From Hydrolagus colliei (taxonomy: Eukaryota): 64,000 nucleotides of DNA. Shown here one piece after another: positions 22,153-52,300 of this stretch. Location: contig CM068748.1 in the NCBI GenBank assembly GCA_035084275.1, forward strand, positions 12,462,001 through 12,526,000, in the 5' to 3' direction. The stretch's first letter is position 1, and each line of letters starts with the position of its first letter. A model generated the notes under the pieces. That model did no database searches. It was given only the letters and a program-made list of their open reading frames with translations, and was not told the DNA's origin. The position numbers and the translations under genes are program-made.

Positions 22153-22315
22153 TCAGCATTCTTCTGTTGCTATGACTACCATCACATCACTTTTGCCCAT
22201 TTCCTCAAGGGCACTAGCGAGGGAGTTTATGTCTCCATCATCTTGGTGCTGCGCTTCCCACAAGTCCAGGATGACTCCAGTCGGACTAACCTTCGTAGCA
22301 AAATAGGTGAGATAT
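22153..22315 (-). CDS. unc5b: unc5b exon 17 coding part (death domain C-terminal part, TGA stop)
   Basis: attcag|A TAT...; encodes [53 protein letters not shown]. Confidence 0.96.
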
Positions 22316-28300: not shown

Positions 28301-31300
28301 TTGTCTATCTTCCCTCATATTTCTTTGACCAACTCCATCTGTCTTGTCTACTTGCCTCATTCCTTTGAGCCTCCTCACATTGTAAGCTGCGCTTATATCT
28401 ATCTACCTAGGTCTAGAATTGCAGGTTGCAGTCTTCCAGTTTACATTCTTTCTAGATTACTTCTTTCACATAGTTTATTTCAAACATTTTAAAAATTATA
28501 TATATAGATATATACATATATATCTATATATATTTGGCTTTGCTGAGGCAAACATTTTGCTGCAGGTCAGAAAATCTAATGCTAATATATCTTTAAGATA
28601 GGCAAAATCAATCCGAAGGCTACCTTATCATCTAATCAATCAAACAATGCATCTGAGCCCAGACATTAAGTAATCCTCTTCAGACACTTAAATCTGATAA
28701 ATATGACCTGATGTCATATTCGAGAGGACAGAATTTAAAAGGTTTTAGTAATCTATTTTTTTTACATAGCTTTGTCATTATGACAAGCAAACAAGCCATA
28801 TTTCATTTGGTTATTGCCCTAATTTGAAGTGAATGCAGCAAGCTTTCACACTGCAATTCGATAAAGCTCTGGCATCTATCATCAATATGAATAAAGAATG
28901 ACAAAGAAGCGTGAGGGCCACACAAAACAAACCGTGAGTTACACAGGCCAGCCTGGTGGGTGTTGGCAGTGTCGTAATGGATCTGTGACATCCACAAAAC
29001 AAGTACCCAAATTCAAATGTGTCACTGGATAGGAGGGGTAAGTGAGCACAAAGCAGAGGCAAGGGGCTTTCACACAGATCAGAGGGCTAACATGAAGAAC
29101 CTTCTAACTGGAAGATATTGATAAAACCAAGCAGCAGTCTACCAGCTCTCTCAGCTGGGGATGTTGCACATTTTGCAGGAGACTAAGCAGAGTGATGGGA
29201 AAATCCACGTACATAAATGAGGTTTAAAAAAATCTGCACAATATGCGTGCACGTCTTTATAATTTTTCAGGATACATTCAAACAGGTTATTGAAGCTGAA
29301 ATATTTCATCAGCAGCGAATTCTCACTCCTTACCTCCCACATTCCTTGGTGAGACTGCGTCTTGAGTTTTAAGGTCCAGTCTGATCCAGTGGCGTCTGCA
29401 CAGTGGGGGATGCTTAGTACAACAGGTCGACACAGCAGCATCCCTGTAGGGCCACAGGTTACCATGGGACTTAGGACATTCTGTGAACCATCAGATGGGG
29501 GCCTTTGAAAAATAATATTCAGAGCTCAGTCATCATTGAAGCAACAAACAAGGCAGTTTTCCCATCCAGAATTTTTCTTAGCACAGTATTCACAGAAAAT
29601 TGAACAAATAGGCTATTATGTTTACCTCAAGGGGGCAGCACAGTCTTTTTTAAAAAAAAACCTTAAAAGGAACATTCTTATAGTTTTGATAGTGTTTTTG
29701 TTGCTGATTTACACTTGTATAATTCACACACACAAAAAAAAGAAAGTAGCAATACTCTGACAGCTGACTCTTGAGATGAGGCCAGGGATGAAGTCTAGTA
29801 TAAGGAATGTTTTCACAATGCAGGAGTAGAAATTCCCCTTGGTACTAGAGTTACTCTATTTAACATAGTATTTTAGAGTGCACAGAATTTGGCAAATTGT
29901 TCAGTTTACTTTCAACTAGGAAGCTCGTTTTCTGTCATTAAAAGAGCTTTCAAGACTCACCTCTGAGACAATTGATTTAGTTTGTAGAGGTTTGTTATTG
30001 AGCTTGTGATAGGAGAGAGAAGCTTGTGATACAATCAACAGGTGAAAAACAAATGCATGGCAAGCACCATCCTGCAGCAATAATAATGGGTGTACAGTAC
30101 ATACACCTCTACACACACACACACAAACTGACAGAATAATTTGTTGCAACAGTGAGAAAGAAGTCAGGTGCTTCTTTCACCAACAATATTTCAATGTCTT
30201 CTGAAGCTACTCACTTGCATTAAATTTAGGGCATTTTTATTGGCCTTCAAATAACAATGATGAGCTACTGTATTAAAACAAATCTGAATTACTTTAAGAA
30301 GGATAAATAAGTGCACTGTACTTGTGAGGCTTTCTTTTTTTGGCTTGTGTAGACTAACTCCCTTTAGTGCACTTGTTTATTTGGAGGATCATTGGATACG
30401 CCTCATAAATTTTCTCTCAACAAGCATTACCAAAACAACATTTTATCTATCTTTGTGAAAATTTACAACATATACAACATTTCTTTAAAAAAATGTACAC
30501 AGTATGTAAGACCACCACTGCTCTGGTAGTCCTATATACTGTATGAGTAAAGTTTTTGGAGCTATTCTTCCAGGGTCATAGCTTGCCAGAAAATTTCCCA
30601 ACAAAACCCATGTAAAAGGAGCCAGGAAAGAGAAGGAATGGTGGTGACTTATAAGACGAAGGTCAAATGCATGTTATTGTGGAACTTGAACATGGTGCTG
30701 CAATTGAATGTTGTTAGCACAACAAGTTCTGCATTACTGAGGTGTTACTGTACAGTTGCAGTGCTTAGGGTCATTGTGTCATTCTGTCTTCAAAAAATTC
30801 CTAAGAAATTTTCTCCTCGACCTTGTCTAGGTGAACATACCAGCTTGGTGTCATCTTTGTAAAGCAAAGGAGCAGTTTCTCTACGGGAAGTGGCATACGA
30901 TTGCAGGCTGTTGTGTACATGGTGCACATACCATGCATCAAATATTCACATTAGAAAGCATAATGGAGTCCTGCAGCTCAGTGGTTAGAACACTCGCCTT
31001 ACAAGTGGGAGACCTGGGTTCAATTCTAGGCAGGGTGAAACCTTGGGAAAGTTTCCTTAATACACACGCCTAATAATAATTCCCCCCCCACCCCAAAATA
31101 ATAATAAATTGGTCATTTCAATCCATGACTGTTTGTGGGACACTGCTATGTGCAATTGGCTGCCCCATTTTGCCCACAAATCTACAGTCAATTTACAGTA
31201 TATTCTGCAAAGCGCTTTGAGATGTCTAGATGTGAAAATACACTATATCAAAACGCAAGGATTATTATTATAATGCTGTACTTACAGTGTGTTCTCCCTC

Positions 31301-34300
31301 TTGTTGATTATTAGATACATTTCATAGAATTTGCCCTGAGGAATTGCCCCCTGGGGTACCAATAGGCTGACACCTGATGAGAAAAGGAAAAGGGTAAAGT
31401 TTCTTCTAATATTGTAGGAAGAATCAAGATGGATCATAATTATACTTTTAATGTAGAACATGATATCAAACTATATTTTAGATCGAATAGTGTATCCTCC
31501 ATCAAGGCAATAACATTGTATTCCAACCACCTTTAATATTCCACAATCTCCATTACACTGCTGTTTTGAGCAGCCAATTTGTCATTGACATCCTCTCTCT
31601 GTAACAGGACCAAAACAGTAGAATAATCCATAGCTCCAGGTGCTCAGTGGATGGCTGACATCCTAGATGAATACTATAGCAACAGCTCGCTTTGGATAGA
31701 GTCATTCACACAAAATTAATACCTTGGAAGTGGTTACAGAAGAGATCCAAGCCTTCCAAACTGAATAGGCTGTCAATATGGCTGAGGTTGTTGAAGTATT
31801 GAGTTTCTCCTCCTTGGCATTGCTTGCATGTTTGGTAAACTCAAGTCATGAATCAAGCTGAAGGATTCTTAGGCAGAATATCATTAATGCTCAAATTTTG
31901 AACCTTGATCATTTTGTATTTTGTTGGAAATTCCTGACATTTGGAAAAGGAAATTCTGCCGAAATATTAGAATTCTTGCGCCCCGAAGTGACCTCACTGA
32001 ACAACTTCTGCATAGAATTACAAAGATCAGTTTATGGTTCATAAACTAATCCGAATGTGTCATCTTATTCACTGCCTTCCATCTGTCACACCTGCAAAAT
32101 GCTACAGAAATCTGCAGTTTATCTACATGGACTAAAGCGGTACAGGCTCTCTGCTTGAGGCTTAAAATCCAGTCTGCCATCCTTGGTTCTACATCATTAC
32201 TGAACAGAATGAGAGAATTTTTCTGAGCGAATTGGGAGCTGTCCTAATCATGCCAATGTGCCTCAGGGGAGCTGGTCTTAGAAAGTCACCATGTAACAAT
32301 TTACTCAGAAATAATCCATGGTTTTCATACTCATTATTCTAAGTAGAAGTGGTAGACTAGATCTCATTCTGATCATTTTTCTCTTTGATCGTGCTTACAC
32401 TCATCTTCCCCTTCCCCCTGGCTCGGCCTTGGGCTCCGTCATTGTGAACCACTCTGAGATTTTGCCCGATGTGGAGGGTGCTACATAAATGTAAATTGTT
32501 GTTATTGTTGTATTTTCCACTTGGTGAATACAGTGGTACGCCAGAGTCTTCTATTGCAAGAGGCTTTAATATGTTTACAATCTATGTAAGAGTATCCGAT
32601 TGCTTCCTATTCACTCATTAAAGAAACACACACAGAACATCCTCTCTATATTACAACACTCGCTATAACAAGTAACAAATGACCATGTCCACCCTTTCAA
32701 CGGCTTCATTTCTGAAATCTTTACAGAGAACCCATTTAAAGCAATGTCTCTTAACACTTCCCTGACTACGAAATGCCTCTTCAACATGAACTTACATTAC
32801 ATTTCCCTATCACTCCCAGTTCTTCACAAGTAATTATTATCAAATGCAGAGATTTTGTTTCTATGAAACATGACAGCCATTTGTGCCAAATAAGTCTCAC
32901 AAATAGACATGGGGAGGATCAATTTATCTGGAGCGTTATTGCCCTGGACACAAGAAGAATTTCCCTTCTCTGTTTGAATAGTAGGTGGAGATCTTTTATG
33001 TTCACCTGAACAACAAACAGGCAGGACCTTGATTCAGCCTCACTTCGATAGAAGATCTGGTGATCAATGAGTGACACCCCCCACTTCACACTCCCAGTCC
33101 TGGATTAGAGTCAGTCAACACGATGAGCTCAAGTCTCAACACAGATCTTGTATCCATAATCTTCCGTCCCAGAGCCAATTTTTAACATGATCTTGTGTAG
33201 AAAGTGCATTTCCTTATAAATGTCAGTCTTGTCCTATATAGTAAAGGTAGATACAGTATTAGGCGCAACGGGACATAATGGTGAAAAAGTACAGAGGGAG
33301 CAAAGGTAGGATTGCAAAGCTTATGGAATAAAGCTTCTTTCTAACATTTTGATGTGTGATACATGCTAAAATGAAATACAACTGAGTAGAGAGCAGTCAT
33401 CTGTGTTGTTATTATATTTTGTAATGAACAAACAATACTCTCAGTGATACTCAGTGACAAGAGTGTAAGTCTATAGTGCCTTAAGGAGTAATTGCTTCTA
33501 ATAGTTGTCTTGCAGGTTTCTGCATGATTTTATATTCACATACACTAAACTGCTGAGGCCATTTTTAATCTACAACGATGCTGACATTTAAAGAATGCTT
33601 GTGTCAAAAGTAATGAAATCTGTTTTAGAGTCTTAAGTGCTGCAGTGTCTGTAATGAAAGTTTGGTTTTCGTTAATGTACTTGACAGATGACATTTATCA
33701 AACTATAAATTTATATCACCGCAGATTTTGTGGAATGTTTTGCACTATAACTTTTTTTAAAAAAAGATGTTGGTACAGGAGTAAGAGCAGAAATTGGTAT
33801 TAACTTTACTTTATTAGTTTTTGTGATTCTGAACTGAAACAGGAAATTACAACAAAAAAGAAACGTTGCTTTACATGTGAATTCAATCGTTTCCTTTGGA
33901 TTGGAGCCAGCTGTTACCTTTTCCTTGTCTGAATAGAGACAAGTGTAGTTATGATATAAATTTTGGTGCTATATAATACGAGAGGCGGAAGCGACCTGTG
34001 ACCTGAAATTAACATGCTTGGGGAGTTTTAAGGTAATGTAAACATTATATTAAGGTGTCAGTATTTCCTCAATCTGCCCCAGCACTTTATGTGGTGTATT
34101 GTATCACCAGCTGCCCGAGATCCAGAGCTGACTGATGGCCAGCAGCCAAACACTCTTAAATGAAAGATCGTGTTACTGTCTAACATCATTGCACTAATCT
34201 ATCGGTAAGTGCTGGCAGTTTTCTGTTAAGTGTTAAGTTATCCTCCTTTCCATTTCACAGCATATACCAGTTGAACTGCACCTGAAATATTTCTGCCAGA

Positions 34301-37300
34301 CATGAGCTGCACTTTTAGGAGAAATTCCAGGGAACAAACAAAAATCCTCATGTTGCTAAGTGCCATGACATAGATTACGCTAACCCCTGACATTCCGTCC
34401 CTGTTATCGTAGATCATCAATGTCATTGCAATGAACCACACCACGCGAGGAAGGTTTTATTCATGGATACTGAGAATTTACATATGAAACCAAATTCTCC
34501 CAAGGACCCCTGACAAAGCCTTCAGTTCAAATATGCATAATTGGGGTTATCAGAATGATCTTGCTGTACTGTGTTTTGCCAAACTGCACACTGTAAAAGG
34601 GGGCTATGAGATCAAAAGGAAGGAGTGGGTAGGCTGGAAATCTGAAATAAGTGGAGACATTACTGGGAATGCACAGGTCACTCACTATTTGAAAGGCAGG
34701 GTAAAAGTGCAGGTGTGACCCTCTCAAGCTTCATGAAGGGTCATACGAAACTTTAACCCGAGCTTTCTTTTGCATGTGCTGAAAGATCTGCTGTGTTATT
34801 TCCAAGGTACATTATCTGAGAGGCTAGCGTGCTCAGGTGAAGAGATACGTTCATTTTGAAATGTGACTGTACATAGGATTTTCTGGTAACCAGATGTTCA
34901 TAAACCTGTGGTAATAATGTTATGGTGATCACATCTCTGTTGTGGATGTCAAGGGGCTCGGACCATATCAGTGCCTTCAGCTGTTGAAAAAAATCCACTG
35001 AAAAGTGTACTTTCCCCTTCCTGAACTCATATTAAATAAGACAGTAACTGCAAGGCATTCTAAGTTGTCGAGGTGCCTTACATACATAAGATAATGAGTA
35101 CTGAGGGATTGAGATAGTTTATGCAGAAAATAATGGACAATTGTTACTGAATTATGGAATGGTGATCTTAACTGAGGGCCTCAAATTGTTTCTATGTAGA
35201 ATAAAGAATCCCTCGGAGTAAGTTACAAACCAGTTAACAAATCCAATTACTTTCTTATTACAATCTGAACCACTCAGTGAAATTACTGTCTGATAGTTAC
35301 CTCCGGGTAGCTATTATTCTCTATCTACTCAAACAATTCCTTACAACCGATATCGTTCACATGATGCCTGTTTTTTGGTAAGGAATGCAATGCTCACAGC
35401 AAGTGGCAACATTTCCTCCACACCTTCCCCTCCTCCGCCACATGTTCATTTCCAAAAGGCAATGGCAGAGGCAATGGCACCAATGTCAACTGTTAAGCTT
35501 CCAGCAGCACATTCATCACTGAACTTTGGAAAATACCCAAAGTTGTGCTAATGGAGACATTGCAAAGTTAATGCAATAAATAGCATCGTAAATATGAATG
35601 TCATCATCCATTAATAACATAAAAACAGACCAAAAACAAATGAAGTGCACCCACAAAATTGACAGTAGGAATTGGAAACTAATGCTAGACATATTTGGCT
35701 GAATCTAATCTCTCAAATAACATAGAGAGAAACTATTTGATCTTCACTCTTGAATCTTCTGATAAGATTACTGTCTTATAAATCACCCTGAACCATTCCC
35801 TCTTCACCACACTGCACCACAGCTAAAATGTGAAACTCATTACAAGCAGAGTTACACACACACACATACTCAAAACACAAACCTGAATTAAGCACTGTGA
35901 GGCGACCACCCAAACAGCCGAAGGTTCCACTCGCACTGTTCCCGGGCTCCCTGGGCAGTGTGTTCAGATGCTGAGAGCTGAGCGCTTTGTTCCTCATGTT
36001 CATAACATTATTGTCCCTACTGTTTCCTCCTGGGTAAGTACCCAATGGTGCCTTCCCAGGATGATCAATTCCGTCTGTCAGTCCAGCAGTGGTTGTTGAA
36101 GAATTATATACTTTAATCTTCAGGCTTGGCAGTGGGTCAAGTAGTGGAGAGTTTGTCATTGGTATCTTGTCAGCTGTGTCCTGCAGGGTGTACATGGGTC
36201 CTCGATAAGAGCCAGCGCTGGCTGTCAGATCTGGTTGCATAGAGGAGTTGAGCAACTGAGGATGATCTGTAAAGGGAAAAACTCAAGTTAATAGAAGTGA
36301 AATTTGGTTATGCACAAGATACGGCCAATTCAATGCCCCAAGAAACACAGCCTTTTTCATTGGTATAAAATAGGGTTTAAATCATTCACTTTCATGCTGC
36401 TATATTTTAAAAAAATCTCGGGCACTTGGATACGATGGTGAAACTACTTTCTCTGCCCCCACCTCCCAATCCTATCCAGTTTGAAAATATAGAAATTTGG
36501 TTTCTATCCAAAAAGAGAGTCAGCACAGGTATCCCAGAATGAGGAATATTTGTTTCTGCCAATCTATTGGGAGTGTCACAGCAATTCTTTGTTGCAGTGC
36601 TGGTCTATATTAATTACAGTCAGTACATATTTCACACTCACATTGATGGCTCCCTTCCCATGTAGAAACAAGCTACACTTTTTCTCACCATTGCATTAAA
36701 TCTTTGTCTTGCAGCTGCTTTACGGACAGCAACCATTAGACTTGTCAATATTGGAACAATTATGCAGAGTGACTAACTGCTTCTTAGGAGGAAGTATTGC
36801 CTCCTATGAATGTACCATTTAACAGATTCCTAGTGAAGAAAATGGGGAATAAAGCGTGAGTTGCATTTACAAGACAAATGGCCCTGGAAGTACAATGGAG
36901 CAGTTTTTCAAACCAATTTTATCTTGTGGGTTTGTGTGTGTATATTTGTAACATAAAAGCAACCAATGTCACCCTCCCCTCTGCCCCCAAGGAGCAATAC
37001 ACATGTAGTGCACACTTGAATTCTGATAAACATCCAGCTAACTGGACAGTAAATTCTAGCCCAGGGTTTGGATATTTAGGAACTGCAGCTAAAAGTAAAA
37101 CTTTTTGTAAATCTTGTGACTTAATGAAGCCTGTTGAATCATTCATTCCACAATTCAATCGAGACAAACATAACAGAAGACGTTAAACATCACACAGAAG
37201 TGATGAGGCGCTTGAAAGCCGCTGCTGCCTTCAGAAGAATTACTGCAGCAACTATGAGTGAGGCCACAGAAGTCCAGGACATTGTCACTTCACCAATGTT

Positions 37301-40300
37301 GACCCTTTTCCCTCAGTCATTTTCTCCCCTCCTCAACGTGAAGGTTTAGGGTTTTGCTGGATATGGTTTTTGCATGGTCAGATGACCTCGATACCTCAAC
37401 CAAGTGGCCATTTTTCATGGGACTGACCAGGCAGTGAGCATCCAAAGCTTATTTCCTTGGGAAAGGGAGGCATTGGGTGCTTGCCCTGCTCTCAAGCTAC
37501 CTGCCCAACTATCAGATGGTATGTTGAGGATAGCTCAGAGCAGGCTTCATCCTGTCTCACAACTTGAATTGCATTGCAGTTAAGGTCCAAACACTCAAAA
37601 GCAAAAGGGGAAACAGACCTTTACTATGATGAATGTACACACCATCAGGAACCTTTTCTGCAGCTCTTTTACAGATCGGAAATATGAAAAAACAATTAGT
37701 GTAAACAATTTGATTCAATATTTCGGTACCAATATCAGATAGAAGTTACTGAGCCCAACTACAGGTGTTCCCTAGATTTGTTATTGTACCTTTCACGCCC
37801 CAAAGCGTTTCAGGGGTAAAACTGTGCAGTTCAGTGTGTACTTTGCAGGCAAACATGGCAGCCAATATGTACAAAGTAATTTACGTTCCACAAAGGAAAT
37901 AAGGAAAAGCAGCTATTCCATTTTAAGTTGGTATTCTGCTGATTGATGTTTGCAGCATATTCCCATGTGAATTATTACAACAAATTTTTCAATAGAACAT
38001 CAGCCTTACATTTGCATTAACCGAATCATCACAGAATATGTTCTTCACTGCCAGCCTTGTAATTGAAATAAAAATCAATTGCAATAAAAGACTGTAACTT
38101 TAGCTGTCATTGTGACTCGCATTGTATTGGCATCTCATCAAAATAACTAAATGGAACTGCATTACTTTCCAGCCAGCAATACCATTTGCAATATTCAAAT
38201 GACTGCAAGTTTCTCCCGTTCTCATTAAACAGCAAGAAAACACATTATAGTATTCATGCACACGTCAAAGTTTAATAATTTAGAAGAAAAACAGACATGA
38301 GGGAAATTACTGCTACCAATGTCTGTATTGCTGGGGAAGGAAAAGAAATCCTTTCCAAACCAAAGTTTCATAAAGAATGTTTTTCACACACACAAACTGC
38401 TGCTCCATCTGAAAAATCACATTCTCTGCGGCTTGCACTACATAATTCCTGCCAGTTCTTCATCGAATAAAGGATCATGTTACTGCTTGTCTGAAGAAGT
38501 GAACTGCTCTTTGAGATTTACCGCTAGTAGAGCTCAATGAACAATACGGTGCGCAAGACAAACTCCCTCTACAGGGACCCTAGGTTATATACAGGTCATG
38601 TTGAAGGCCACAAAGAGTTCACCAGAGATCTACAGATTGTTTGTTGGAACACAGTTGTGGGCAAGATGTAGAAGCAAATGTAAACTAATATTTCACAAGA
38701 TTGGTGTGGATAAAGAAGGCCCTTTGTTCCACCTGATCTCATCGTCCCAGAACACCCAGCCTACCATTGTCTGATCACAGCATCAAGCTGGTTTTTAAAA
38801 TGAGTCTAATGCCCTGACCTCAACCACTTTCCCTAATCATCTTTTGTAGACATTTGATTACTCTCTGCTTCACATGTATGGATATTGTTCTGTGGAACTC
38901 GCACTGACCTGAACCTCATAATATACCTGTCTTGAAGCGTTGACCAGCCATTTATCCATGCTAAAAAATGTCTGAGGTCTCGATTGTTCAGTTGGTTAGA
39001 AAGCAGCGCTAATGTCACTTTCTTTCCAAAGCACAATTGCCACTGATGTAGCTCTATGAAGGAGATAACAATATGTACCAGACGATTGTCCACTTACCGT
39101 GCCTGGCAGTCTTGAAGTTCACAGGCTGAAAGCCTCCAGTCAGAGCTGCGGAGGAGTCTGTGATGTCTGTGTCGAAGTCCCGGCAGCTCCTCTTGTACAC
39201 GATGATGCCAACCACAAGCAAAATAATTACGAAGATGAACACAGCCACAACTAGACCTGCGTACAGAGCCACGTCGGCAGTTGCCTCTATAGCTGAAATA
39301 AAAAAAAGATGCTTCACATTAGCTGCAATGTGGATCAAAACCCGGGTCGAATTCTGGAAAAGATTGGCTGGCAAACTTTGTCCGTGAAGTAACAATCTAT
39401 GAATTATTAAACGTGTTCAGTAATCAGTCAGCATAGTAGTGATTCCACAAGCTGAGTTTTATAGTGGAACCCTGTTATATAACGTGTGTCCAATTATAAC
39501 GCAAGTTAAACTTCACGGTTGTGGAGCCTGACATTTTCTTACCTAAACCTTCTGATATTGCACCTTCCAAATACAGTTGCGTCGCCTAATGTGATCACAT
39601 CCATTCTTGTCCTTTTGACAACATTGACCAGCTGATAACATTAACCAAAAATCAGTTCATGAGGGGATTGCTGGGGAATTGGTTAGGAGGTCACAATGCA
39701 ACCCCTTTCGTAGAGAGACGGGATGGTGTGGTATATAATAAAACAACTCAAAAGCGAGGGAAACGCTCATTAAAATTCCTACAGAGTAAAACAACATTGT
39801 ACTGGTGACATTGATGTGCAATTCCTTTTTTTTCCTACCCCCTGCCCTCTCCTTGGTGAAACCTGGTACAGCCACCTGCAGATGAAAGAGGTTCCCCTTC
39901 CCTACACAAGATGGGGTGAGTATAATTGGAGGCTCTCCTCTCCTAGGTCAGCTCTAAGCCACAGTGAACAAAGTACGTGCTGTTGCACTCCCTCCGCCAG
40001 CTCGTGCTAAGCAGCCACTCAATCAGTACTGGATCCAGGCCGTGTTCAATCCAGAACCCCGCACACCACCTGCCTTTGTAGGCATCAGTGACTCTTGCTT
40101 CTCCCATTGGTTTGCTGCCGCGCCCCGTCCTGCCTGCCTGCCCTCCCACATGTGACAAGCGCTCAGCTGGCAGTCTCATCCCATGAGAGTGACTGATAGA
40201 GACACTATCCCATCTCTCTCCCCATCTCCAGCTCGGGGTAAGAGATTTGAACATAAAGGTCGGATTTTAATTTGATAACATTAACTGTCAGATTGTTAAC

Positions 40301-43300
40301 AATATCCAGAAACTTTTATTGATATAAAATGGGATTTAGTTGTGCTTTTTTATTTTGATAACATCAACCGACTGATAACATTAACCAGTGATCACGTTGT
40401 GCAGCACCTACGGTACATCGACGTATTTCAAACTGGGCATGAAATCTCGTCATCTCACTTCAAAATGAGTCAGCACAACAACAGGATGTGAAAGCTGTCA
40501 ACGGGATGTGAAGCATTTACAGTGAGAACTTCGCACCCTCTTATGTGGATGCTGAGTTCTGTTGTTCATCAAGAGGCTCGCAGAGAGTTCCTGGAACCTG
40601 CCATCCACATGGGGATAGCTCAATGCTGCTCTTGTCGAATGTGAAATCAATATCTTGTGTTTATCCTCCTGGGAGAGGAGAAGGTAAGCAGGGTCTACTT
40701 GGTTCTCAGGTTTGGTTTGTTAGGAATCCAAGGCACACTTTGAGATCCCCAAGCCTTGTCTCTCACCATCATGTACCTAATAAGTTTCTTTCTAGAATTA
40801 TGTAAGCAGGTTGAGTTTAAGCACTCTGAGACATCACCCGGCATGAAGGGTGCTATATAAATGCAAGTTGTTGTTCTTGTTGCAGGGATGTATTGCATTC
40901 CAGAAACTGGGATTTCCACGTAGTGGTGGTATGTATATGTGTAAATGTATCTGGTATGGATAGTCTTGAGCACAGTGATGTGTTTCCACATGTGTCAGAC
41001 ACCCAGCTAACCAAAAGAAAACATGACGCATGTTGGTTAGGTTAAGACAAGATACATTCACCACTCAGATCCATGGCTGTACAGTGTCTCATAATGAATG
41101 ATTATTGTACGCCACTTTCACATCCAAAAATGAATTAAAAATAATGAAATGGAAACTTACTAGTACTTGTTGGTTCGTTTAAAAGCTTTTCATCTGTTAA
41201 AAAAGAACGAAAATAAACTCAGCATGAGAAAGATAATGAAAATTAAATGAACTGTAGATGCTAAATGTACACAGAAATAAAACTTGCAAAGGAAAATAAA
41301 TTGGACATACACCACTTAATCTTACCCAAAACACATCCACACGTACACACTCACACACTGAATCCAACAACCAAACCTTTATATCATGAGAAAATGATTG
41401 GAAGAATGTTAAACTAATTAGATGGATAATGCTCTTAGTTGTGCCAATACTTCATTGGGAAGGCTTTATTCTTACCTGATTACTCTTATTATTCTTACCT
41501 TAACTAAGACCTTATTTCTGCTGCCTGATACCCTAGTGATATAACTACAATTTCAAAACATGAAATAAAGGGGCACGGGTTTATGCTTCTGTATTTACTT
41601 TGTGGAGGTTTGCTTTATATACCAGAGAGAGGCTTTTAGATTAAAGCAGAAATGCCTCATAATAATCCCTCCCCAAAAAAACACAATAGCAAAATTGGTC
41701 ATTCCAATCCACGACTGTTTGTAGGACACTGCTGTGCACAATTGGCTGCCATGTTTCGCCCACAAATATACAGCCAATTCACTGTACAGTATATTCTGTG
41801 AAGCGCTTTGAGATGTCTAAAAGATGTGACAAGCACAATAAAGTGCAAAGATTACTACAGTAAAAGCCCATTTATCCAGCACCCTCTGGACCTGGCTGAT
41901 GCCGGTTAAAGTGTGTGCTGGATATTCGGCCGAAAACGCAAATAATAATAATAATTTCTACGCATTTTTCTGGATAAATTCCGGTTAATCGAATGCGAAC
42001 TTTTTTTGCGCAATTCCGGTTAAAAGGAAGTTGCGGTTGATCAGGTGCCAGATAAACGGGCTTTTACTGTATTATTATTATGATGGACAAAGTGACGACA
42101 GAAATACAAGCAGCTCATGAGCTCCATTTGTTGCCTTCCTGGTCACCACTAATGTGTTCTTATTTCATCAAATGTGCAGATCTATAGAATCATAGAATAA
42201 GAGTAGAGGAGGAGATCATTTGGTCCATTAAGCTCAAGCAGAAGGTTGTTGCTAGTTTCAAGGTCATAACAACAGGGAATCTGGCACAGGAAACTGACAG
42301 TGAGAGGCATCCGGCTGCAGGACCCTGAGCTTTTGGCAACTTTACACTAAAAATCTAAAATTGGAAAAAAGGATGAATATGAGCTTCAAGTGGAGACTAC
42401 ATTTTGGCACATTTTCTGCCCTAGTCCTTTTCTATTGTTACTAACTCTTTTGCGGGTAATGTTCTATGAGCAACAGCACCCTATCGTACATTTGCTTCCT
42501 GATAATTATACTCAAGCCTAATCCTGTTTCATCAGATGTTTACACCGGGCGCACTGTTTGACTGGAGCAGAGTGGGTACCCTCTTTGACTTGTTGCTTCC
42601 CTAGTGGAGGGACGCTGAATTCTATTGGCTCCCAGGTTGGGATCCGCCACCTCGATTCTCTCCTCTCCCCATGTTCAAACAGATGGAATTTTACAGTGGA
42701 GCAGCTGCTTTTTCCCTTTCTCGAACCCAGGGAGACTGAGGCCAATTCCAGCGTACGTACCTGGTCCTATGTAACCCACTGCAGATTAAGAATGTTAGGT
42801 CTCCAGACGTCAGTGCAACGAAGTTCCAGCAAATAGAAGGAGTTTATAACTTCAGAGTTATTATAATGATAATAATAATAGTAATCCTTACATTTGATAT
42901 AGCGGTTTTCATGTCTTCTAGACATCTCAAAGAGCTTCACTGTAAAATGAATTGACTATATATTTATGGGTAAAAAATGTAGCAACCAATCGCGCACAGC
43001 AGTGTCCCCACAAACAGTCATGGATTGAAATGACTAAGTTATTATTATTTTTTGGGGGGGGGGCGGGGGGGGGAGAGATTATTATTCGGCCTGTGGAGTA
43101 GGGAAACTTGCCCAAGGTTTCACCCTGTGCCTGGAATTGAACCATGGTCACTTGCAAGGCGAGTGCTCTAACCACTGAGCTACAGGACTCTACACCCTAT
43201 TTAGTATCAGCAGCAAACTTGGGACACAATTCCTTTACCAAACCAATCATGTAAAAACCAATGGCCCCAGTACACGCTATCAGTTTGACGAACATCTATT

Positions 43301-46300
43301 CATTTACACACTGTTCATTAGAATTGCGAGTCATCCACTTGGTACGATATTGCTCATTCCACACAGGAATCTGGCGAGTAGTTTAAGTAAAGCCAAGCCT
43401 TTCACATGTAGATTTGTGCACACAGTTCTGCTAACCAAAGCAAATATTTGGAATGGATAGATTATTAAGGAATGTAGGTACAAAACATCGCAAATTAGCC
43501 CCGTTCTATTTCTTCCAGCGCCTTGTGACGTCCTCCCAATATGAAAGGCAATTTTTTGTTGTTGTAAACTAAAAATAAGATGGACCAAAGCTCTTCCTTC
43601 TCTATCCCAAATTAACTGCAGCAGAAGTTCTTGAAATTGCTTGTGTCCAATATTCTCTCTCTAAAAGCTGTAAAATAATAATGAGTATACACAGAGCAGA
43701 GACAAGGCAGCCTTTAGCTGGGGCTGAACATTGAAATGGACAATTAGGAATATATTATGTGGTATGAATGCAGGGAGGGCCCAGCTCTCGTTGTGCTGGA
43801 ACAGCTGTAAGGCCAGCTAGAAATGGGACAAACAGTACCAGGAGCTGACACTGAACTCCAGGCTCAGCTGAGTCTGTCACATTCATTGCATGTTCCAAAT
43901 GTATGACACAAGGAATTTGGTTGGAAAATTGTAGCAAATATGTCTTGAGGGGATATTACTTGCTGGTACTGAAGACAAAAGCTGATTTAACTCGACAAGA
44001 GTGCCAGTCTAGCCTTTTAAAATACTAATTTATAATACAGAAAAAGCTTGGCTGTGAAGTTGCAATTAATATGTAAGGTCAAGTCCAGGACACATAATTT
44101 CTGAAAAATTATTCATATTTTTGGAAGTCAGCCTTCGGACATGTCAGTTTACTTCATGCAACACTGAATTGCAGTTATTTTGATTTGCTTTATTATCCAG
44201 GGTCAATGAAACAAGCCATTTCTAAGCAATATACATTTTGAACAGTGCGGTACTGTAGTCTCAGTCCTGCTGCTGTGGATTACATTGTGAAGTACAGAAC
44301 TCCTAATTTAGCATTATTTTGATAGTGAAGAAGTAGCCGCCCTCAAACATATAGCTCGTGTGGGAAATGGAACGTCACCTGGAACATTTCTTCTGAAGTA
44401 AGGGTCAGTGTTCATTGCTCGGAAATGGAATGAGGTTTACTCTGCTATATACGATGATACAGAATGATAATAACTACAGTAACATAATAATATTTATATA
44501 AGGCCTTTCACATCGGGAGGACAGCCCTAGGTGCTGGACAGTTAAAGCTGTGGTGGGGGCAGATAAGAAGAAGGTACTGATGTGGACCTTGAAGGAAGCA
44601 AAGGAAGGGGCAAGCCGAAGATACTCCAGGATTAAGTTCCAAAGAGTGAGAGTATATAATCTGAAAGTCTGGGTGGGATAGGGTATGTGCCTTCTTGTAA
44701 ACAATTATAATCCTTCCCATTGATATAGTACTTTTCATTTTGAGAGGACATCTCTAAGTGCTTCACAAGAACTACTGTAAAATGCAGTCACTTTGTAGGC
44801 AAACACAGGACATGGAAATTCTCTACGCAAACAGGGTTTGTCATCGGTGGAGGAATGGCCCATTTCCCTGCAACAGTATCTCTTACATTGATGAGAACAA
44901 GCCACTCCAAAGCATAATACAATTTTAATACTAAAGATCATGGATATTGTCATTTTCATGTTTGGAGGATGTTTTAAAATGCCTCAGATTATGAGGTTCC
45001 CTCTCTCCCTACCCATCCAATTCTACCTTTATTTCCTTTCTTCTCAAAGCAGTAACGCACATAGTGAGTGTGGTTCTACAAACACTAGAATTATTCTAAT
45101 ATCTCATATAAGTGACCACTCTTCATGGTTCAGCATCAGTAAGTTAAATGAACTGTGGGACCATCAGTCAAAACTTTCACATCTTCAAACAGACTTTCAC
45201 TTACACATACATTCTTCCTTTTCTGCAGAGGTCACTGAATAGCTTCAAAGCACAAGAACCATGACAAACTTTTCCTGTCTAAAAATGGGATACTGAGAAT
45301 CATTGCAGTTCTTTTGCTGCCAAACCTCCTGATTTCAGCTAACTGAGCACATGAACCAACGACAATCCTAGTATGTGATCCACAGAACCATGCCAAACAA
45401 GGGCCAACTGAGCCATTGATGTTCATTTCAAACTCAGTATCAGACACCACATACAAGAGTGATCTCTCACTCATTATTCCATAACACGGAAGAGCCATAT
45501 GCAAAATTCATTATAAACAACTGAATTATGTCTAAATATTAACTATAAAACAAATATTCGTAAAACTGTGAAAGAATTTCTGGGGATGGAGGGATCACAG
45601 GGTCTGCCCAGCAGTCACCGCAATGGAATGCTTCAAATCTCAACTGGTAAAAAGAGATGGTCCAGCTGATGTGGAGGGTTGTGGCTTGACCACAGGGCTT
45701 AGAGCTGTAGGACAAGAGTGGGATACTAGCCGCTCGCTGCACTGGTCACAAGCACTTACTGGAGAAAAGCATATGTGAAGATCTTCATGGGAGGGAACGT
45801 CTTACCTTTTGAACTGAGGAGAAACAACAGTGGAAGGGAGAAGGCATGCATCAATTAAATAAACTTAGGGAGAGAATCGAGGGCTGCAGAATGGAAACCT
45901 TTACAAGCAGTGCATTCTTCTTCATTTGGGACTTGATCAGTCTTTCTTGAGGGGCCCTTTACCTCCACCACTGAAAATCAGGGCAAATTTAAGTAACTTT
46001 GTGCTCTCGTTTATCAACAGCATTTAGTGTAAAACACCAGGATTGGAGCTCTGCGGACAGTGTGGATTGCGCGCTTAAATCAACATTGTTGACTTCTCCT
46101 GCTGCTGGTGCCTCACAGATGTAGCACATTGCAAGCACAGCATCTGTGTGATGTGCCACAGCTTTCACCTGCTGCTAGAGCCCACCCCTGCAGAGAAATT
46201 CATCCAATGGCAATCTGTGCTACTTACTCTGCATACAGAGCCCATCTGTGCAGTTTTTGGACACCAGCACTAGACCAGAGCAGTCTCTGCCTCCGTTTCT

Positions 46301-49300
46301 GGGGGACGGTGCCGCGCACTTGCGGCTTCTCCAGTGGGTGCACTCTGTGCTGCAAGCCGACCATTTGCTCCACTCTGTCCAGCCACCGTCAACTGCATTT
46401 TACCAGGGAAAAAAAAATAAGAAATAAAATAAAAATGACTTCGGGTCACATCACAGCCAGCCAGACCTGCTTGAATTAAAACACTGTTTCTGGGGCTTCA
46501 CATCTGATGCTCTGATTCAAGAAGCTGCAAGCTCACTCTACAGACTACAATATTTCCCTCACTGCCAGGAGCACAGATCAAAGGCATACACCAGCACAAG
46601 GCATGCTTGAATAGCCTATTAACTCTTTGCCTTGACTGGTCTACTTGCTTTGCCATAAGGCAGTAATTTGCCATGTTGTGTGGTGAGTGGAAAATGTAAT
46701 TAGTAACTATTACACACCATCTTATCATGAACGTGCTAAGCAAGCTGTTTTTTTTTAAAACAGAACAGAAGCACTGATGTTTGTGGTGGATCGAAAACAT
46801 TGAGGCAGACGTCATCTGTTTTTAATGATTGCGTGTCAGCACAGTATTTACAAGTCCACTTCAAACATCCTGCATCATTCTGGGTTACCCCAGTTGCAGA
46901 AACCCTCCCCTCCTCCAGTTAAAATGAAGGACAGATGCCTCAGTGCCATTGACACTTGCACGTGTAAACACATTGCTTGCATGTTGCCTTCACTACTCGT
47001 AATTCTGGCCGTTAGATCTCCCTCAATTACTGGAGCCTCTGGAATCAGCAGGACAACTTCAATCACCCAACAGTGCTGTCATTGGAAGCCAAGCTGTCAG
47101 TTTGAAGGATATTACCCTCCAAATGTGCCTTCTCAGCAACTGCACTTCTTTCCTGCGATCTAATACTGATCAGAACAATTGCTACAGTTACAAATTCTCC
47201 TCTGCAATGACTGACCGTCAGTACAATGGAACTGCAGGTTCAAGTGGCAAACATAATTGTGGAAAGGTGAGTCTTACTCTTTGCAGATCACCATAGTACT
47301 GTTTTCATTTGAGCACACTTGCCTTGCACAGTCGTTGACCTGGTACAGAAGATCCTGACAAACACCATTTTACATTCACTTTAAAGATGGCATCTGATTC
47401 ATGCACTGTGAAACCTTGTTAGAATACAGTGGTTGGGATTAACAAATTTCCAGCATTGCAACAGAGATGTAACTCAATTTGTGGTATAAAGAAGTATGTT
47501 TTTAACAAGGCTGCCTTGTATTAAGAATCAAAGATTTGAATCCTGGATTGACCTTCTCTGCCCAACGCTTGACAAATGGGAATTAAGATTTAAATTGTAT
47601 GTATCTGGATCAACTTTAGTCTGATCTCAATCTTCCCTTGGAGCTTTCAGTCAATTAGAATACATGTGGTAAAGTTTTGAGAAACATTTTCAGTCTTGCT
47701 TCTGTTTTTTTCACCAGTGTGAATTTTGGTTGGATATTTTAATTCTCTACTAATTTAAAATCTCCAGTGGAATAGTTAACATTGTCATGATGGATGATGT
47801 GTGGAAACTGCTGAGCAAATGTTTTCCCCCTGCAAAAGCATCTCAAAAATATCCTGCAGTTTACCCAACAAAAATGTTTTATACTATACATACAGTATAC
47901 ATAGAATCATTCAGTTCATATAGCCTTTGAGGGAACAAACCTCATATCTCACAGTGGATGGAGAATAAATTCAATAATAAACAACACAATATGCTTGAAA
48001 TAATTTGGAAGCTTTTGTGTATAATATGAGCAAATCAAACACAACACAACCCCCCCCCCCCCCCCCACACACACACCAAAGCCACCTCTTCTGTCACTTC
48101 CAGTATTGCTTACACCACCTAAAATCAAACTCACCTGGGCACATAGTGCTGCAGGAAATCCTCTGGGATGTTTGTCCATCACAGAAGGCCCCTCCATTTA
48201 GTGGTGCTGGGTTGGTACATGTTCTTGTACGCTTCTGCCAGCCTCGGCCACAGCGGTTGCTACATGTAGTCCATTCTGTCCAGGTGGACCATCCACCATT
48301 TACTGGGGGAAAATCAGAACAGGATATCCTTGGTTGAAATGTATCTACAAGAAAATCTTTGCATTTGATACTGCACACTTCACATCAGGAGGACATATAT
48401 GAAATCCTGCTTCACTGGATACACTGTAAAGTGTATTGAATGCGTGTTTTGTAGACAAACGCAACAGCAAATCTGCATGCAGCAATGTCCCACAAAGAGC
48501 TGTAACAGATTTTATTTGGGAGATTGTTGGCCAGGAAACCAGGAGAAAATCCCTTCTTTTTCTGAATAATACCATGATATTTATTGTCCACCTAAACAGG
48601 CAGATGAGACCTCAATTTAACATCTCATCCTAAATATAGCATGTCCACCAATGAAGTTACACACCCAGGATTGCATTGCGATAGCAGCTTGGACTAGTGA
48701 GTGTAAAGTCCCAATGTGGAAATTGAATCCACGGCCATCTGACTCAGTTGCACGATTGCTATCACATCATCCAGGCCAGTACCTGGAAAAGAGAGCTGTG
48801 CAGTACAATCCTTTGTACTGCATTCCCTTCATTTTAGTCCAACCAAGTAGAGCTTGTCTAAACCGTATATTCAACTATCCCACAACTGACATTTCAATTA
48901 CACTCTACAGAGGGGATTGAGCTGCCTAAATTGGACAGCCTCTCAATAAAAATGATGACTGTCGCAGTGCTGTGGTTCTTCCAGTCAAAAACCATATAAG
49001 ACAATTTGAACTGGATAAATGTAACCTATTCCAGTCCAGAATCTACCCTTTGCAACTCTGAAGAAAAGATTGTTCAAGGTTTTTTTTTTGTCTGAAATCC
49101 AGTATTGCTTGTTGGATTGTGAGTGTACTTCAGAATGCTGAATGTACCCTGAGATGTGCTTTGCATTATTTTTAGCCGGGAATGTACTTGGGAAAATTTG
49201 GGTCCCTGAAATCACAATTAATCTGGGAATTTCTTAATTTCTGTCTTTTGAATTGCTTCTTCCATCTTCTCCTAGAAAGACAAGATTCTTAACAAACACC

Positions 49301-52300
49301 AAACTAATTGCCCCCAACTTTCCTATTGGTTAACTCCTTTTAAAACAAAATACCTGCATAAGTGACTGCCTGGAAACGGTACTGAAGAGCACAAGGACAA
49401 GTACAAACTGAGATGGACAAATACTTCATAGGACCTAATGTTGTCCGTTCTGCTGGGACCTGTTAATGAGTAGAAAAACTTTGGCTTTGGAAGGAGAAAT
49501 GCCAGGCTTGAACTGTAGAGATATGGACATGGATAAATATTACGGTGTTGATACTCGTTACAATTGGGGATCAGATTGCAACCATACAGAACTATACAGA
49601 TACAGCTAGTGCGGGTGGGAGTAGTTGACAATAGTGTCTTCTTTTTCCACAGTCTATAGAAGAAGTGGATTTGTGGGCTGGTCAACTTTTTCTTGTTTCT
49701 TATTTCTGACTTTGCTATCACTCATTGGCGGCCAATCTTCAGGCCTGCATGTGAGCCTATCTCACGTCTGCCAAGTATTACGAGATTAACCCTGAAACAC
49801 GTCACACCGTCTAAGCACAATGCAATTGTTGAGCCGTGTTAATTATTTTGTTGTTTGCATCAGTAAATCCTGAGATCCCAATAACAATGCCCCTCTTTTT
49901 ATTGTAACCCATTGGCAGCTCTGAAGGCTGAAGATTATTCTGCATCTTTCATCTTAGATCCTATCAACAGCATATTAATTCCTTCTAAATTCCTTTACTG
50001 TACTGCTGCATATTGAATAGACCGCACACATTTATTATGTGTCTTCCCCTCTTTATTTTTCAGACAAGAAGTCGGGGGGAAAAAAACAACCATCAGCCAG
50101 AATGATGCCAAATATGTAACATTGCTGCTGAAACTGGAATCCTGTAAGAATTTTAATCTCCTATTGAAAGCTATATGTTGTCCAACATGTCAAGTAGAGT
50201 CCATATTAATTGGGATTCTGCTGCTTCCAAAACCTTCAACAAGTAAATTACAGATTATTAACTCGAGTTGTTATTGCTTTAGGGGCTAGCAGCGGAAAAG
50301 CTGCTGACGTACAAGCAATTAAACTTTTCATATTTAGAATATTAATCATCAGAACAGCTCATTGCACAACAACAGGCTGAACCCATGCTATACCTGAATC
50401 TGTTAAAAGTCCAGTTTGTTGCATTGATGTGTCAGAGGAACTTTTCCTCCATAACCCCAAGGTGTACTGGCGGGGAGCATTCAGGCACATGTTGCTGTTT
50501 CACTGGATGTTCACCTATAGTGTATACTGATACATATCCAGCTATAATATAGTCAGTAAATGAATAGCTATAATGTACATTGGTCCAAATGAGAAGATTG
50601 TTACAGTAGAAGCCTGTTTATCTGTGACTTGATGAACTGGCACTTCCGTATAACCGGCAAGCCCCAAAAAACTCCCCATTTGATAAACCGGAACTTATCC
50701 GGAACAATAGCGGTGGAGCATTTGAAAATGCATAAATAACATAGCAACAGAATATTGTATTGGTACTTATTGTTCAAACTACTTTCTTGCGCTTCTCATC
50801 TTTGCTGGTAGATGCTGCGCTTGAAGCCATAATGCTGCGGTTGACGTTTATTGTCCAGCGATTCTTTTTAAAATGGAGCATGCCAAACGGGTGAAAAAAA
50901 CGGAGCGCAACTTTAAAGCCTTACTAGCAGCAAGCCGATAACGCTAGCCAATAACCCACATTGTCGCGTAGGTGCTGTATTTCGGTTTGCCACAAGTAGA
51001 GTCTAGGGCTATCGGCTTGCCGCTAGTAAAGTCGCGCAAATTGCCGTTTTTTTCACCTGCTTGGCGTCCTCCATTTAAAAAAGAATCGCTGGACTGTAAA
51101 CCTCAATCAGTAAAGGTGAGAAGTGCAAGAGAGTAGTTTTAACAATAAGTACCAACACAATATTCTGTTATTATTTGTTATTATTTAGTCTGGTGTGTAT
51201 AGTGTGTGTCAAAAAAAACTAATTTTTTTTGTGGTGGGTTTTCAGCCGTGGGCCGCCCGAATATCCGGCAGGCACTTTAACCGGCATTGGCCTGGTCCCG
51301 CGGGTACCGGATAAACAGGCCTTTACTGTATTCTGTTTTGCAACAAGCTTTGTTTTCTCCATACAACCATTAGCTGTGGAGCTGTGGAGTCCTGTAGCTC
51401 AGTGGTTCGAGCACTCGCCTTACAAGCGAGAGTCCCGGGGTCGATTGCCGGACAGGGTGAAACCTTGGGCAAGTTTCCTTTACTCCACACGCCTGATAAT
51501 AATCCCTCCTAAAATTTGTTAATTCCAATCCATGACTGTTTGTGGGACACTGCTGTGCAAAATTGGCTGCCACATTTCGCTCATGTATCAATTGACTTTA
51601 CAGTATTTTCTGTGAAGCGCTTTGAGACTTCTAGAAGACATAAAAAGCGCTATATCAAATGCAAGGATTATTATTATTAGATGTCCCGAATACTGTAAAC
51701 TCTAGACCTGTGTCTTACCGTATACAAGCACTGTGGCAGTGGTACTCCGCCGCTTGGCAACAATGTTCTTAGCCACACAGGTGTAGTTTGCCGTGTCTGA
51801 CAGGCGAGCTTGTTTGATGATCAGATTGTGGTCAATTGTGATGAGGAAGTTGGAGTCTTGAACTGAGTTGATAACATCTTCATTCTTCAGCCATTCCACC
51901 TAAATGAAATAATGAAATGGGTGATTGGGGGGAAAGTGGTGGTGGAGGTGGGGGGGTGGGAGGGGCAAGTGGAAAGAAGAGAGTGTGTGATTAAACGCAA
52001 GTATCCCTCAAGATGCCAATGTGCTTCAATTATTCTTGGCCAGTAAAAAAAAATCTTTGAAATCTTAAACTAATGTGATAACTTGTGAATTGATAAAATG
52101 AAGAAAGTTAGAGTTCAAGGACAGATATGGTTGGGTTGAGTCACAAAAGCCTCCAGGTATCAAGAGAAAGATTTGCATAATTAGTGCACTTCTTTCCCAT
52201 TAGTGAGACTAATTGCCACAGGTTGCCGTGCAGAAAGACTTCATCAATTGGGGACTCTGAGGTAAAGGAAGATTTGATGGCTTGTGTGCCACAGTTTAAG

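What the first reader, a model, noticed from the sequence alone, without database searches (positions are those of the whole stretch)
41070..41250. 33-nt unc5b microexon 8 flanked on both sides by YCAY (NOVA-type) clusters
Seen: an in-frame 33-nt exon (41161-41193) with a strong gtaagt donor. YCAY motifs on the transcript strand (plus-strand atga/atgg) start at 41073, 41094, 41098, 41130, 41144 and 41149 downstream, and at 41224, 41236 and 41247 upstream. Known: in mammals UNC5B exon 8 is alternatively spliced, and the skipped form is reported to be NOVA2-driven, netrin-insensitive and pro-apoptotic. Inference: this splice switch may date to the jawed-vertebrate ancestor. Clusters on both sides leave the direction of regulation unclear, and AT-rich DNA inflates YCAY counts.
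Basis: partly seen in the sequence, partly recalled or inferred. Interest (0 to 1): 0.7.

Follow-up and report, generated by a model that had tools for sequence, protein, structure and literature searches.

The report
Ancient UNC5B optional exon in chimaera
This is the chimaera (ghost-shark-type fish) copy of a known 33-base optional exon of the netrin receptor UNC5B; it is likely skipped in some cells under control of NOVA splicing proteins as in mouse and zebrafish, which would date a known switch to the first jawed vertebrates but is otherwise ordinary.

Summary
The gene is unc5b of a holocephalan (98% to Callorhinchus milii UNC5B). Exon 8 (33 nt, phase 1-1) is already in the C. milii RefSeq model, and sawfish and zebra-shark annotations hold both forms, so the exon and probably its skipping date to the jawed-vertebrate ancestor; a similar peptide in fish UNC5D suggests the exon is older than the B/D duplication. 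The NOVA signal is real but modest: the upstream trio is at background (27% of 100-nt windows match it), the downstream six are rarer (1.3%), each cluster only just reaches the published score threshold (0.6), and exons 4 and 5 have more YCAY. One amniote-type locus has clusters on both sides too, sharing YCAY at +9 and +14 (shuffle p 0.011). Only NOVA1 was found in this assembly; NOVA2's absence may be an assembly gap. Splicing in this species and the direction of NOVA control were not testable. Not an SRRM4-type microexon. Known event, extended to cartilaginous fish; no earlier scan note on it was found.

The parts
41161..41193 (-). unc5b exon 8, 33 nt, phase 1-1 cassette; encodes (N)[10 protein letters not shown] of the stalk between the second TSP1 repeat and the membrane
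   Evidence: 10 of 11 residues match C. milii RefSeq XP_007896056.1
41194..41223 (-). polypyrimidine tract and acceptor (...taacag; the last 6 bases are the same in L015)
41224..41250 (-). upstream YCAY trio (TCAT at -57, -46, -34); cluster score 0.60; the -34 motif overlaps a yTnAy branch-point consensus (41224-41228) and the only nearby UGC (-31)
41155..41160 (-). donor gtaagt
41130..41152 (-). donor-proximal YCAY trio (+9, +14, +28) in a U-rich stretch (19 T in +7..+36); score 0.60; +9 and +14 shared with L015
41073..41101 (-). distal downstream YCAY trio (+60, +64, +85); score 0.60; not matched in L015 (single motif at +68)
46228..46392 (-). exon 7 (second TSP1 repeat), upstream partner; intron 7 is 5034 nt
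39098..39292 (-). exon 9 (transmembrane), downstream partner; intron 8 is 1868 nt
22153..63632 (-). unc5b coding exons 2-17 (16 exons, open frame of 913 residues); exon 1 lies beyond the window

Best explanation
The 33-nt exon is the holocephalan orthologue of UNC5B exon 8, an in-frame exon that is likely skipped in part of the transcripts, likely when a NOVA protein binds the flanking YCAY motifs. Shown: exon, frame, orthology, motifs, a NOVA1 gene. Inferred: NOVA on the upstream trio would cover the branch-point region, and NOVA on the +9..+31 trio would sit beside the donor on a U-rich tract, lowering exon recognition as in mouse and zebrafish but probably more weakly, since the upstream cluster is much weaker than in the amniote-type locus. 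Inclusion would give the long 11-residue stalk (netrin-responsive, sheddable in mouse); skipping would give the short-stalk receptor reported to be ligand-insensitive and pro-apoptotic.
For: Window protein is 898/913 identical to C. milii UNC5B and nests in UNC5B with 100/99 support with shark. Of 18 elasmobranch UNC5B entries that could be read at this junction or tried, 13 include the 11 residues, 2 lack exactly them (Pristis X2, Stegostoma X2, each with an inclusion form in the same species), 2 lack exons 8 and 9, 1 was unresolved. Mouse, human and zebrafish skipping is NOVA2-dependent through an upstream YCAY cluster (PMC8358048). Each of the three trios reaches the 0.6 cluster score of PMC2014790; both flanks do so at 1.1% of positions in the gene. 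TCAT count in the paired 100-nt flanks is 7, the single maximum of the 41-kb gene (0.1% of positions; motif chosen after seeing the data). L015, an amniote-type exon 8 from host DNA in a metagenome, has clusters on both sides and YCAY at the same +9 and +14 offsets (p 0.011 by shuffle; 1 of 1045 GTRAG sites in own-genome DNA has both, and it is this one). The paralogous 57-nt unc5c exon has 0 and 1 YCAY in its 100-nt flanks, so the motifs are not a generic feature of such exons. A NOVA1 gene with an intact KH2-KH3 exon is in the genome.
Against: Upstream trio is at background and scores 0.60 against 1.45 in L015; 9.7% of 100-nt windows reach 0.6 and the gene holds 79 such 45-nt clusters. Flanks of exons 4 and 5 score higher (1.2, 1.51). 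On the standard NOVA map YCAY at +10..+40 goes with enhancement, not silencing (PMC4054596). The C. milii RefSeq entry retrieved is a single inclusion model; the one skipped C. milii entry sits among 6 of 9 entries with implausible linkers. No NOVA2 locus was found in three searches. Conservation of the flanks rests on one locus whose neighbouring exons I could not see.
Confidence: 0.55

Rival explanations
1. The exon is a cassette, but the YCAY motifs are by-products: the upstream TCATs are branch-point-like sequence and the downstream ones are part of a U-rich TIA1-type element that helps a short exon be recognised; NOVA plays no part here.
For: yTnAy matches at -58, -47 and -35 coincide with all three upstream motifs. 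The +7..+36 stretch has 19 T of 30, the most of 15 donors (others 8-15); TTTT, CATT and ATTT are as enriched as TCAT. TIA tetramers TTTA/TTAT are enriched downstream of enhanced exons (PMC4054596). Combined dinucleotide-shuffle p is only 0.08.
Against: The orthologous exon is a validated NOVA2 target in three species (PMC8358048). L015 keeps YCAY, not merely U-richness, at +9 and +14, and its likely branch point (CTAAC at -22) lies apart from its YCAY cluster.
Confidence: 0.2
2. NOVA regulates the exon but, with two downstream trios against one weak upstream trio, it promotes inclusion (or has no net effect) in this lineage, for example in NOVA1-rich neurons.
For: 6 of 9 motifs lie downstream; +14 and +28 fall in the r3 enhancer zone, and only -34 falls in the r1 silencer zone. 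The +60..+88 trio has no counterpart in L015. Position predicted direction in 24 of 24 chicken and zebrafish cases (PMC2014790).
Against: L015 has the donor-proximal cluster as well (score 0.9), yet the orthologous exon is silenced by NOVA2 in mouse and zebrafish; downstream motifs here are mostly TCAT, which that paper ties to silenced exons when upstream, while enhancers favour CCAT.
Confidence: 0.15
3. Exon 8 is constitutive in holocephalans and the motifs are relics or chance.
For: Consensus donor gtaagt and a long pyrimidine tract; the C. milii RefSeq entry retrieved has the exon and no second isoform.
Against: Skipped forms are annotated in a shark, a ray, bichir, reedfish, paddlefish, carp and tetrapods; length and phase are kept across 36 distinct peptides.
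Confidence: 0.1

Closest known systems
UNC5B exon 8 / UNC5B-delta8 (VastDB HsaEX0069379, MmuEX0050632, GgaEX0006169; zebrafish unc5b; Pradella et al. 2021, PMC8358048)
   Same: Same gene, 33-nt length, position and frame; YCAY cluster upstream of the exon.
   Different: Upstream cluster is minimal (3 motifs, score 0.60); an extra downstream trio at +60..+88; NOVA2 not found in this assembly; splicing not yet measured in any cartilaginous fish in the papers I found.
Isoform-dependent shedding of UNC5B (Sugimoto et al. 2025, PMC12480741)
   Same: Mouse long form is cut at Asn361/Asp362, 16 residues from the membrane; the window peptide has Asn/Glu-Pro at the aligned place and the same 16-residue spacing to VALY.
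   Different: The following Lys (22 of 36 peptides) is Thr here, giving P-T-S-T-T, a possible O-glycan patch that by the authors' hypothesis would hinder shedding (inference).
Stalk segments of paralogues UNC5D (11 residues) and UNC5C (57-nt optional exon)
   Same: Fish UNC5D stalks resemble UNC5B exon 8 (3 of 3, shuffle p 0.0007-0.006); own-genome unc5c has a 57-nt phase 1-1 exon at the same junction, with both forms annotated in Pristis.
   Different: UNC5C peptide is not similar (3 of 3, p 0.25-0.77) and its flanks lack YCAY; UNC5D exon borders and skipping were not seen (0 of 4 Festucalex isoforms skip); no unc5d was found in this assembly.
SRRM3/4-dependent neural microexons
   Same: Short, frame-preserving, conserved, long pyrimidine tract.
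   Different: 33 nt is above the 30-nt limit; one UGC at -31 here and none within 78 nt in L015; known regulator is a silencer, not SRRM4.

Membership tests
UNC5B exon 8 cassette | Host gene is UNC5B | tested here: met
   98.4% identity to C. milii UNC5B; tree; best hits all UNC5B
UNC5B exon 8 cassette | 33 nt, phase 1-1, between the TSP1 exon 7 and the transmembrane exon 9; skipping keeps frame | tested here: met
UNC5B exon 8 cassette | Peptide homologous to N-K-K/R-x-L-x-E/D-P-K-S-H | tested here: met
   N1, L5, E7, P8, S10 match the commonest residues of 36 distinct peptides
UNC5B exon 8 cassette | Both isoforms are made in this species | not testable with these tools
   needs RNA reads; only indirect support from annotated shark and ray isoforms
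NOVA-regulated exon | Cluster of at least 3 YCAY in 45 nt, score 0.6 or more, near the exon | tested here: met
   three trios, each exactly 0.60 (rules; base-10 logarithm and a score of 2 for two 10-19-nt gaps were my reading of the rules)
NOVA-regulated exon | Cluster density above background | tested here: inconclusive
   upstream no (p 0.71), downstream modest (p 0.018; lowest of 30 flanks, not significant after correcting for 30)
NOVA-regulated exon | Cluster conserved at orthologous position | tested here: inconclusive
   one comparison only (L015): both sides have clusters, +9/+14 shared, p 0.011; no shark or mammalian DNA was available
NOVA-regulated exon | NOVA protein encoded | tested here: met
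   NOVA1 on G000:C17; NOVA2 not found, gap not excluded
NOVA-regulated exon | NOVA binds the flanks and its loss changes inclusion | not testable with these tools
   needs CLIP, knockdown or minigene
SRRM3/4-type neural microexon | Length up to 30 nt (PMC7821500 listing; 27 nt in the stricter definition, recalled) | tested here: not met
   33 nt; meets only the 51-nt definition (PMC12064062 listing)
SRRM3/4-type neural microexon | Conserved UGC in the pyrimidine tract | tested here: not met
   one UGC at -31 in the window, none within 78 nt in L015; TAF1 example has them at -18 and -29

The most novel reading that the evidence does not exclude
A two-sided NOVA switch on UNC5B exon 8 has been kept for about 450 million years, and its most conserved part is not the upstream cluster that was mutated in mouse but a YCAY-t-TCAT doublet 9-17 nt after the donor, an untested element that breaks the usual 'downstream means enhance' rule or lets NOVA1 and NOVA2 push the exon in opposite directions in neurons and endothelium; the exon itself predates the UNC5B/UNC5D duplication, and chimaeras run the switch with NOVA1 alone.
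Probability: 0.15. Interest if true: 0.55.

Novelty: new member of a known kind. Interest (0 to 1): 0.25.

Why it matters
If confirmed it moves a validated NOVA-to-UNC5B splicing link from the bony-vertebrate ancestor (zebrafish-mouse) back to the jawed-vertebrate ancestor and points to one cheap experiment in mouse: mutate the donor-proximal YCAY doublet, which the published minigene work did not test although a reviewer noted NOVA2 signal in an intron 8 region. That is an incremental gain: the exon is already annotated in cartilaginous fish and the mechanism is published.

Tried and rejected
RNA evidence: no RNA holder listed; the one run listed behaves as DNA contigs of the same or a near genome, covers the exon (record 40988-41680) with no listed difference in exon or clusters and shows only repeat-driven joints; it says nothing on splicing. 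The query included introns, which made it a poor RNA probe. First protein search with the short exon-6 peptide gave 6 fragments of no use. Pattern scans for more exon-8 loci: 1 hit in metagenome contigs, 0 in prokaryote genomes, 0 in viral contigs; L015's record could not be extended to see exons 7 and 9. NOVA2 loss as a claim was rejected: genes recalled as its human neighbours were also not found (IRF2BP family 2 hits, one beside NOVA1; symplekin 0 with one Pfam model and one weak hit with another, which proved to lie in an unrelated gene in a rhodopsin-containing region), so a missing chromosome piece or an insensitive search explains it as well. RBFOX (TGCATG) and QKI (ACTAAY) motifs: none within -200..+300 in window or L015. 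A cassette exon in unc5a intron 7: none by similarity or splice pattern. Invertebrate Unc5 stalks are long but horseshoe-crab and bug isoforms do not vary there; one hemichordate stalk scored p 0.013 against exon 8, taken as chance among 8 tests. Saito 2016 (PMC4930328, passages) has nothing on exon 8. Earlier scan notes: none fit.

Full report
Observation. The window holds coding exons 2-17 of an UNC5 receptor on the minus strand; all 16 have AG acceptors, the 15 internal ones have GT donors, and they join into an open frame of 913 residues. The feature is exon 8, 41193-41161, 33 nt, between ...taacag and gtaagt. Included, it reads [27 protein letters not shown]; skipped, [16 protein letters not shown], in frame.

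Identity. The protein is 898/913 identical to Callorhinchus milii UNC5B, 89% to a shark, 83% to coelacanth and 77% to mouse, and groups with C. milii and shark UNC5B at 100/99 in a 16-row tree. The genome (1.0 Gb) is therefore a holocephalan close to C. milii. The exon is already in the C. milii RefSeq model XP_007896056.1. Of 9 C. milii entries, 2 include it, 1 skips it cleanly and 6 have other linkers that look like gene-model errors, so the skipped entry is weak evidence. Of 18 elasmobranch entries (15 listed of a 58-member cluster, plus 3 of 6 from a second cluster; 3 partial entries dropped), 13 include the segment, 2 skip exactly it (Pristis X2, Stegostoma X2; both species also have an inclusion form), 2 skip exons 8 and 9, and 1 could not be read. 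Paired forms also occur in bichir, reedfish, paddlefish and carp. These are annotation models; that RefSeq isoforms usually rest on RNA-seq introns is recalled, not checked.

Are the motifs more than chance? Upstream, no: 3 in 100 nt against 3.14 in dinucleotide shuffles (p 0.71), and 27% of 100-nt windows in the gene do as well. Downstream, modestly: 6 against 3.16 (p 0.018), 1.3% of windows, 1.0% when GC-matched; at 200 nt p is 0.10. It is the lowest p of 30 flanks but would not survive correction for 30; the exon was, however, picked beforehand from mammalian data. Exons 4 and 5 have 11 motifs each, mostly CCAC in C-rich tracts. With the cluster score of Jelen et al. (PMC2014790, passages) each of the three trios scores 0.60, the threshold; 9.7% of windows reach that, both flanks together 1.1%, and exons 4 and 5 score 1.2 and 1.51 upstream. 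Counting TCAT alone, a choice made after seeing the data, exon 8 has 7 against 0-3 for the other 14 internal exons and is the single maximum of the gene. The three upstream motifs also match the branch-point pattern yTnAy, and the donor-proximal stretch is the most U-rich of 15.

Conservation of the flanks. No vertebrate genomes are held, but a degenerate exon pattern found one locus in metagenome contigs, L015. It has a 33-nt exon with cag and gtaagt whose peptide, NKRVLSEPKSH, equals that of bird and turtle UNC5B entries; its neighbouring exons could not be seen. L015 has six YCAY at -67..-33 (score 1.45) and three at +9, +14, +20 (score 0.9). The +9 and +14 motifs and 8 bases in a row (+10..+17) are the same as in the window; 1.1% of 20,000 shuffles share two offsets, and 1 of 1045 GTRAG sites in own-genome DNA at hand has both, namely this donor. 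So the two-sided layout is probably old, the upstream side is weaker in the chimaera, and the +60..+88 trio is not shared. This rests on one comparison, and L015's own 100-nt counts are not significant by shuffle (p 0.08 and 0.11).

Regulator. A NOVA gene lies on G000:C17; its last exon is 95-98% identical to NOVA1 proteins and about 80-85% to NOVA2. Searches with the KH profile, the KH3 domain and a shark second-NOVA protein found no other locus, though sharks and rays have one. Genes recalled as NOVA2's neighbours were not found either, so loss cannot be claimed; 'NOVA2-driven' is simply unproven here.

Paralogues. Own-genome unc5c has a 57-nt phase 1-1 exon at the same junction (G000:C1:85329502-85329446) with 0 and 1 YCAY in its 100-nt flanks; unc5a showed none; unc5d was not found. 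Three fish UNC5D-type stalks resemble UNC5B exon 8 (p 0.0007-0.006), UNC5C stalks do not, and the tree pairs B with D (86/84) and A with C (97/96). The segment likely predates the B/D duplication; exon borders in UNC5D were not seen.

Known work. Pradella et al. (PMC8358048; abstract, sections 6 and 8, passages, and passages of the peer-review file; supplementary figures and one image-only file not seen, and they may show the exact mouse, human and zebrafish motif positions) report the event in human, mouse, chicken and zebrafish, NOVA2 binding upstream, reduced skipping after mutating the upstream motifs, and a netrin-insensitive pro-apoptotic short form. A reviewer noted NOVA2 signal also in intron 8 region B, whose position I could not see, and called one zebrafish effect small (97.6 vs 92.1%). 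Sugimoto et al. (PMC12480741; abstract, part of Results, Discussion) place a shedding cut inside the exon-8 peptide, matched by Asn/Glu-Pro here at the same distance from the membrane. Cereda et al. (PMC4054596; passages, section 13) give the map by which +10..+40 motifs go with enhancement. Eight literature searches listed no paper on this exon in cartilaginous fish; subscription journals are largely outside the library. The 450-million-year date is from the listing of PMC6238376.

Mechanism and verdict. Most likely an old cassette that sets stalk length, skipped in part under NOVA control as in mouse and zebrafish but with a weaker silencer (0.55). Rivals: motifs incidental to branch point and U-rich tract (0.2), NOVA enhancing here (0.15), constitutive exon (0.1). 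It is a true member of the UNC5B exon 8 group, a plausible but unproven NOVA target, and not an SRRM4-type microexon. Interest 0.25.

Noticed in passing
window 51900-51999 (minus strand, upstream of unc5b exon 5): The densest YCAY stretch of any flank in the gene: 11 in 100 nt, 7 in 45 nt, score 1.51, ending TCAC-CCAT-TCAT-TCAT right at the acceptor; much of it is a C-rich CCAC tract (dinucleotide p 0.09).
   Followed up: partly
window 57086-57389 (flanks of exon 4): YCAY on both sides (5 up, 6 down in 100 nt), again mostly CCAC; shows that two-sided clusters occur at a presumably constitutive exon.
   Followed up: partly
G000:C1:85329446-85329502 (in L012): unc5c has a 57-nt phase 1-1 exon at the same junction, with a very long U-rich tract and no YCAY; both forms are annotated in sawfish.
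   Followed up: partly
proteins P0143 (Mobula birostris X2) and P0139 (Rhincodon): UNC5B models that join exon 7 to exon 10, dropping both exon 8 and the transmembrane exon in frame; would be a membrane-free form if real.
   Followed up: no
G000 whole assembly: No nova2, unc5d, third IRF2BP gene or symplekin was found by exon-wise searches; may mark a missing chromosome piece.
   Followed up: partly
window 41670-43400, 40840-40880 and many other places: A very high-copy short interspersed repeat family dominates the introns (contig depth up to 2 million; recurring '[12 protein letters not shown]'-type frames).
   Followed up: no
window 44700-44760 (minus strand, intron 7): The intronic frame ...[15 protein letters not shown] resembles the linker used by one UniProt C. 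milii model (P0010); probably a gene-model error rather than a second cassette.
   Followed up: no
G000:C20:1700001-1900000 (L032-L051): Region fetched as a control holds a rhodopsin-like opsin gene and neighbours, three runs of N and long simple repeats; no NOVA sequence.
   Followed up: no
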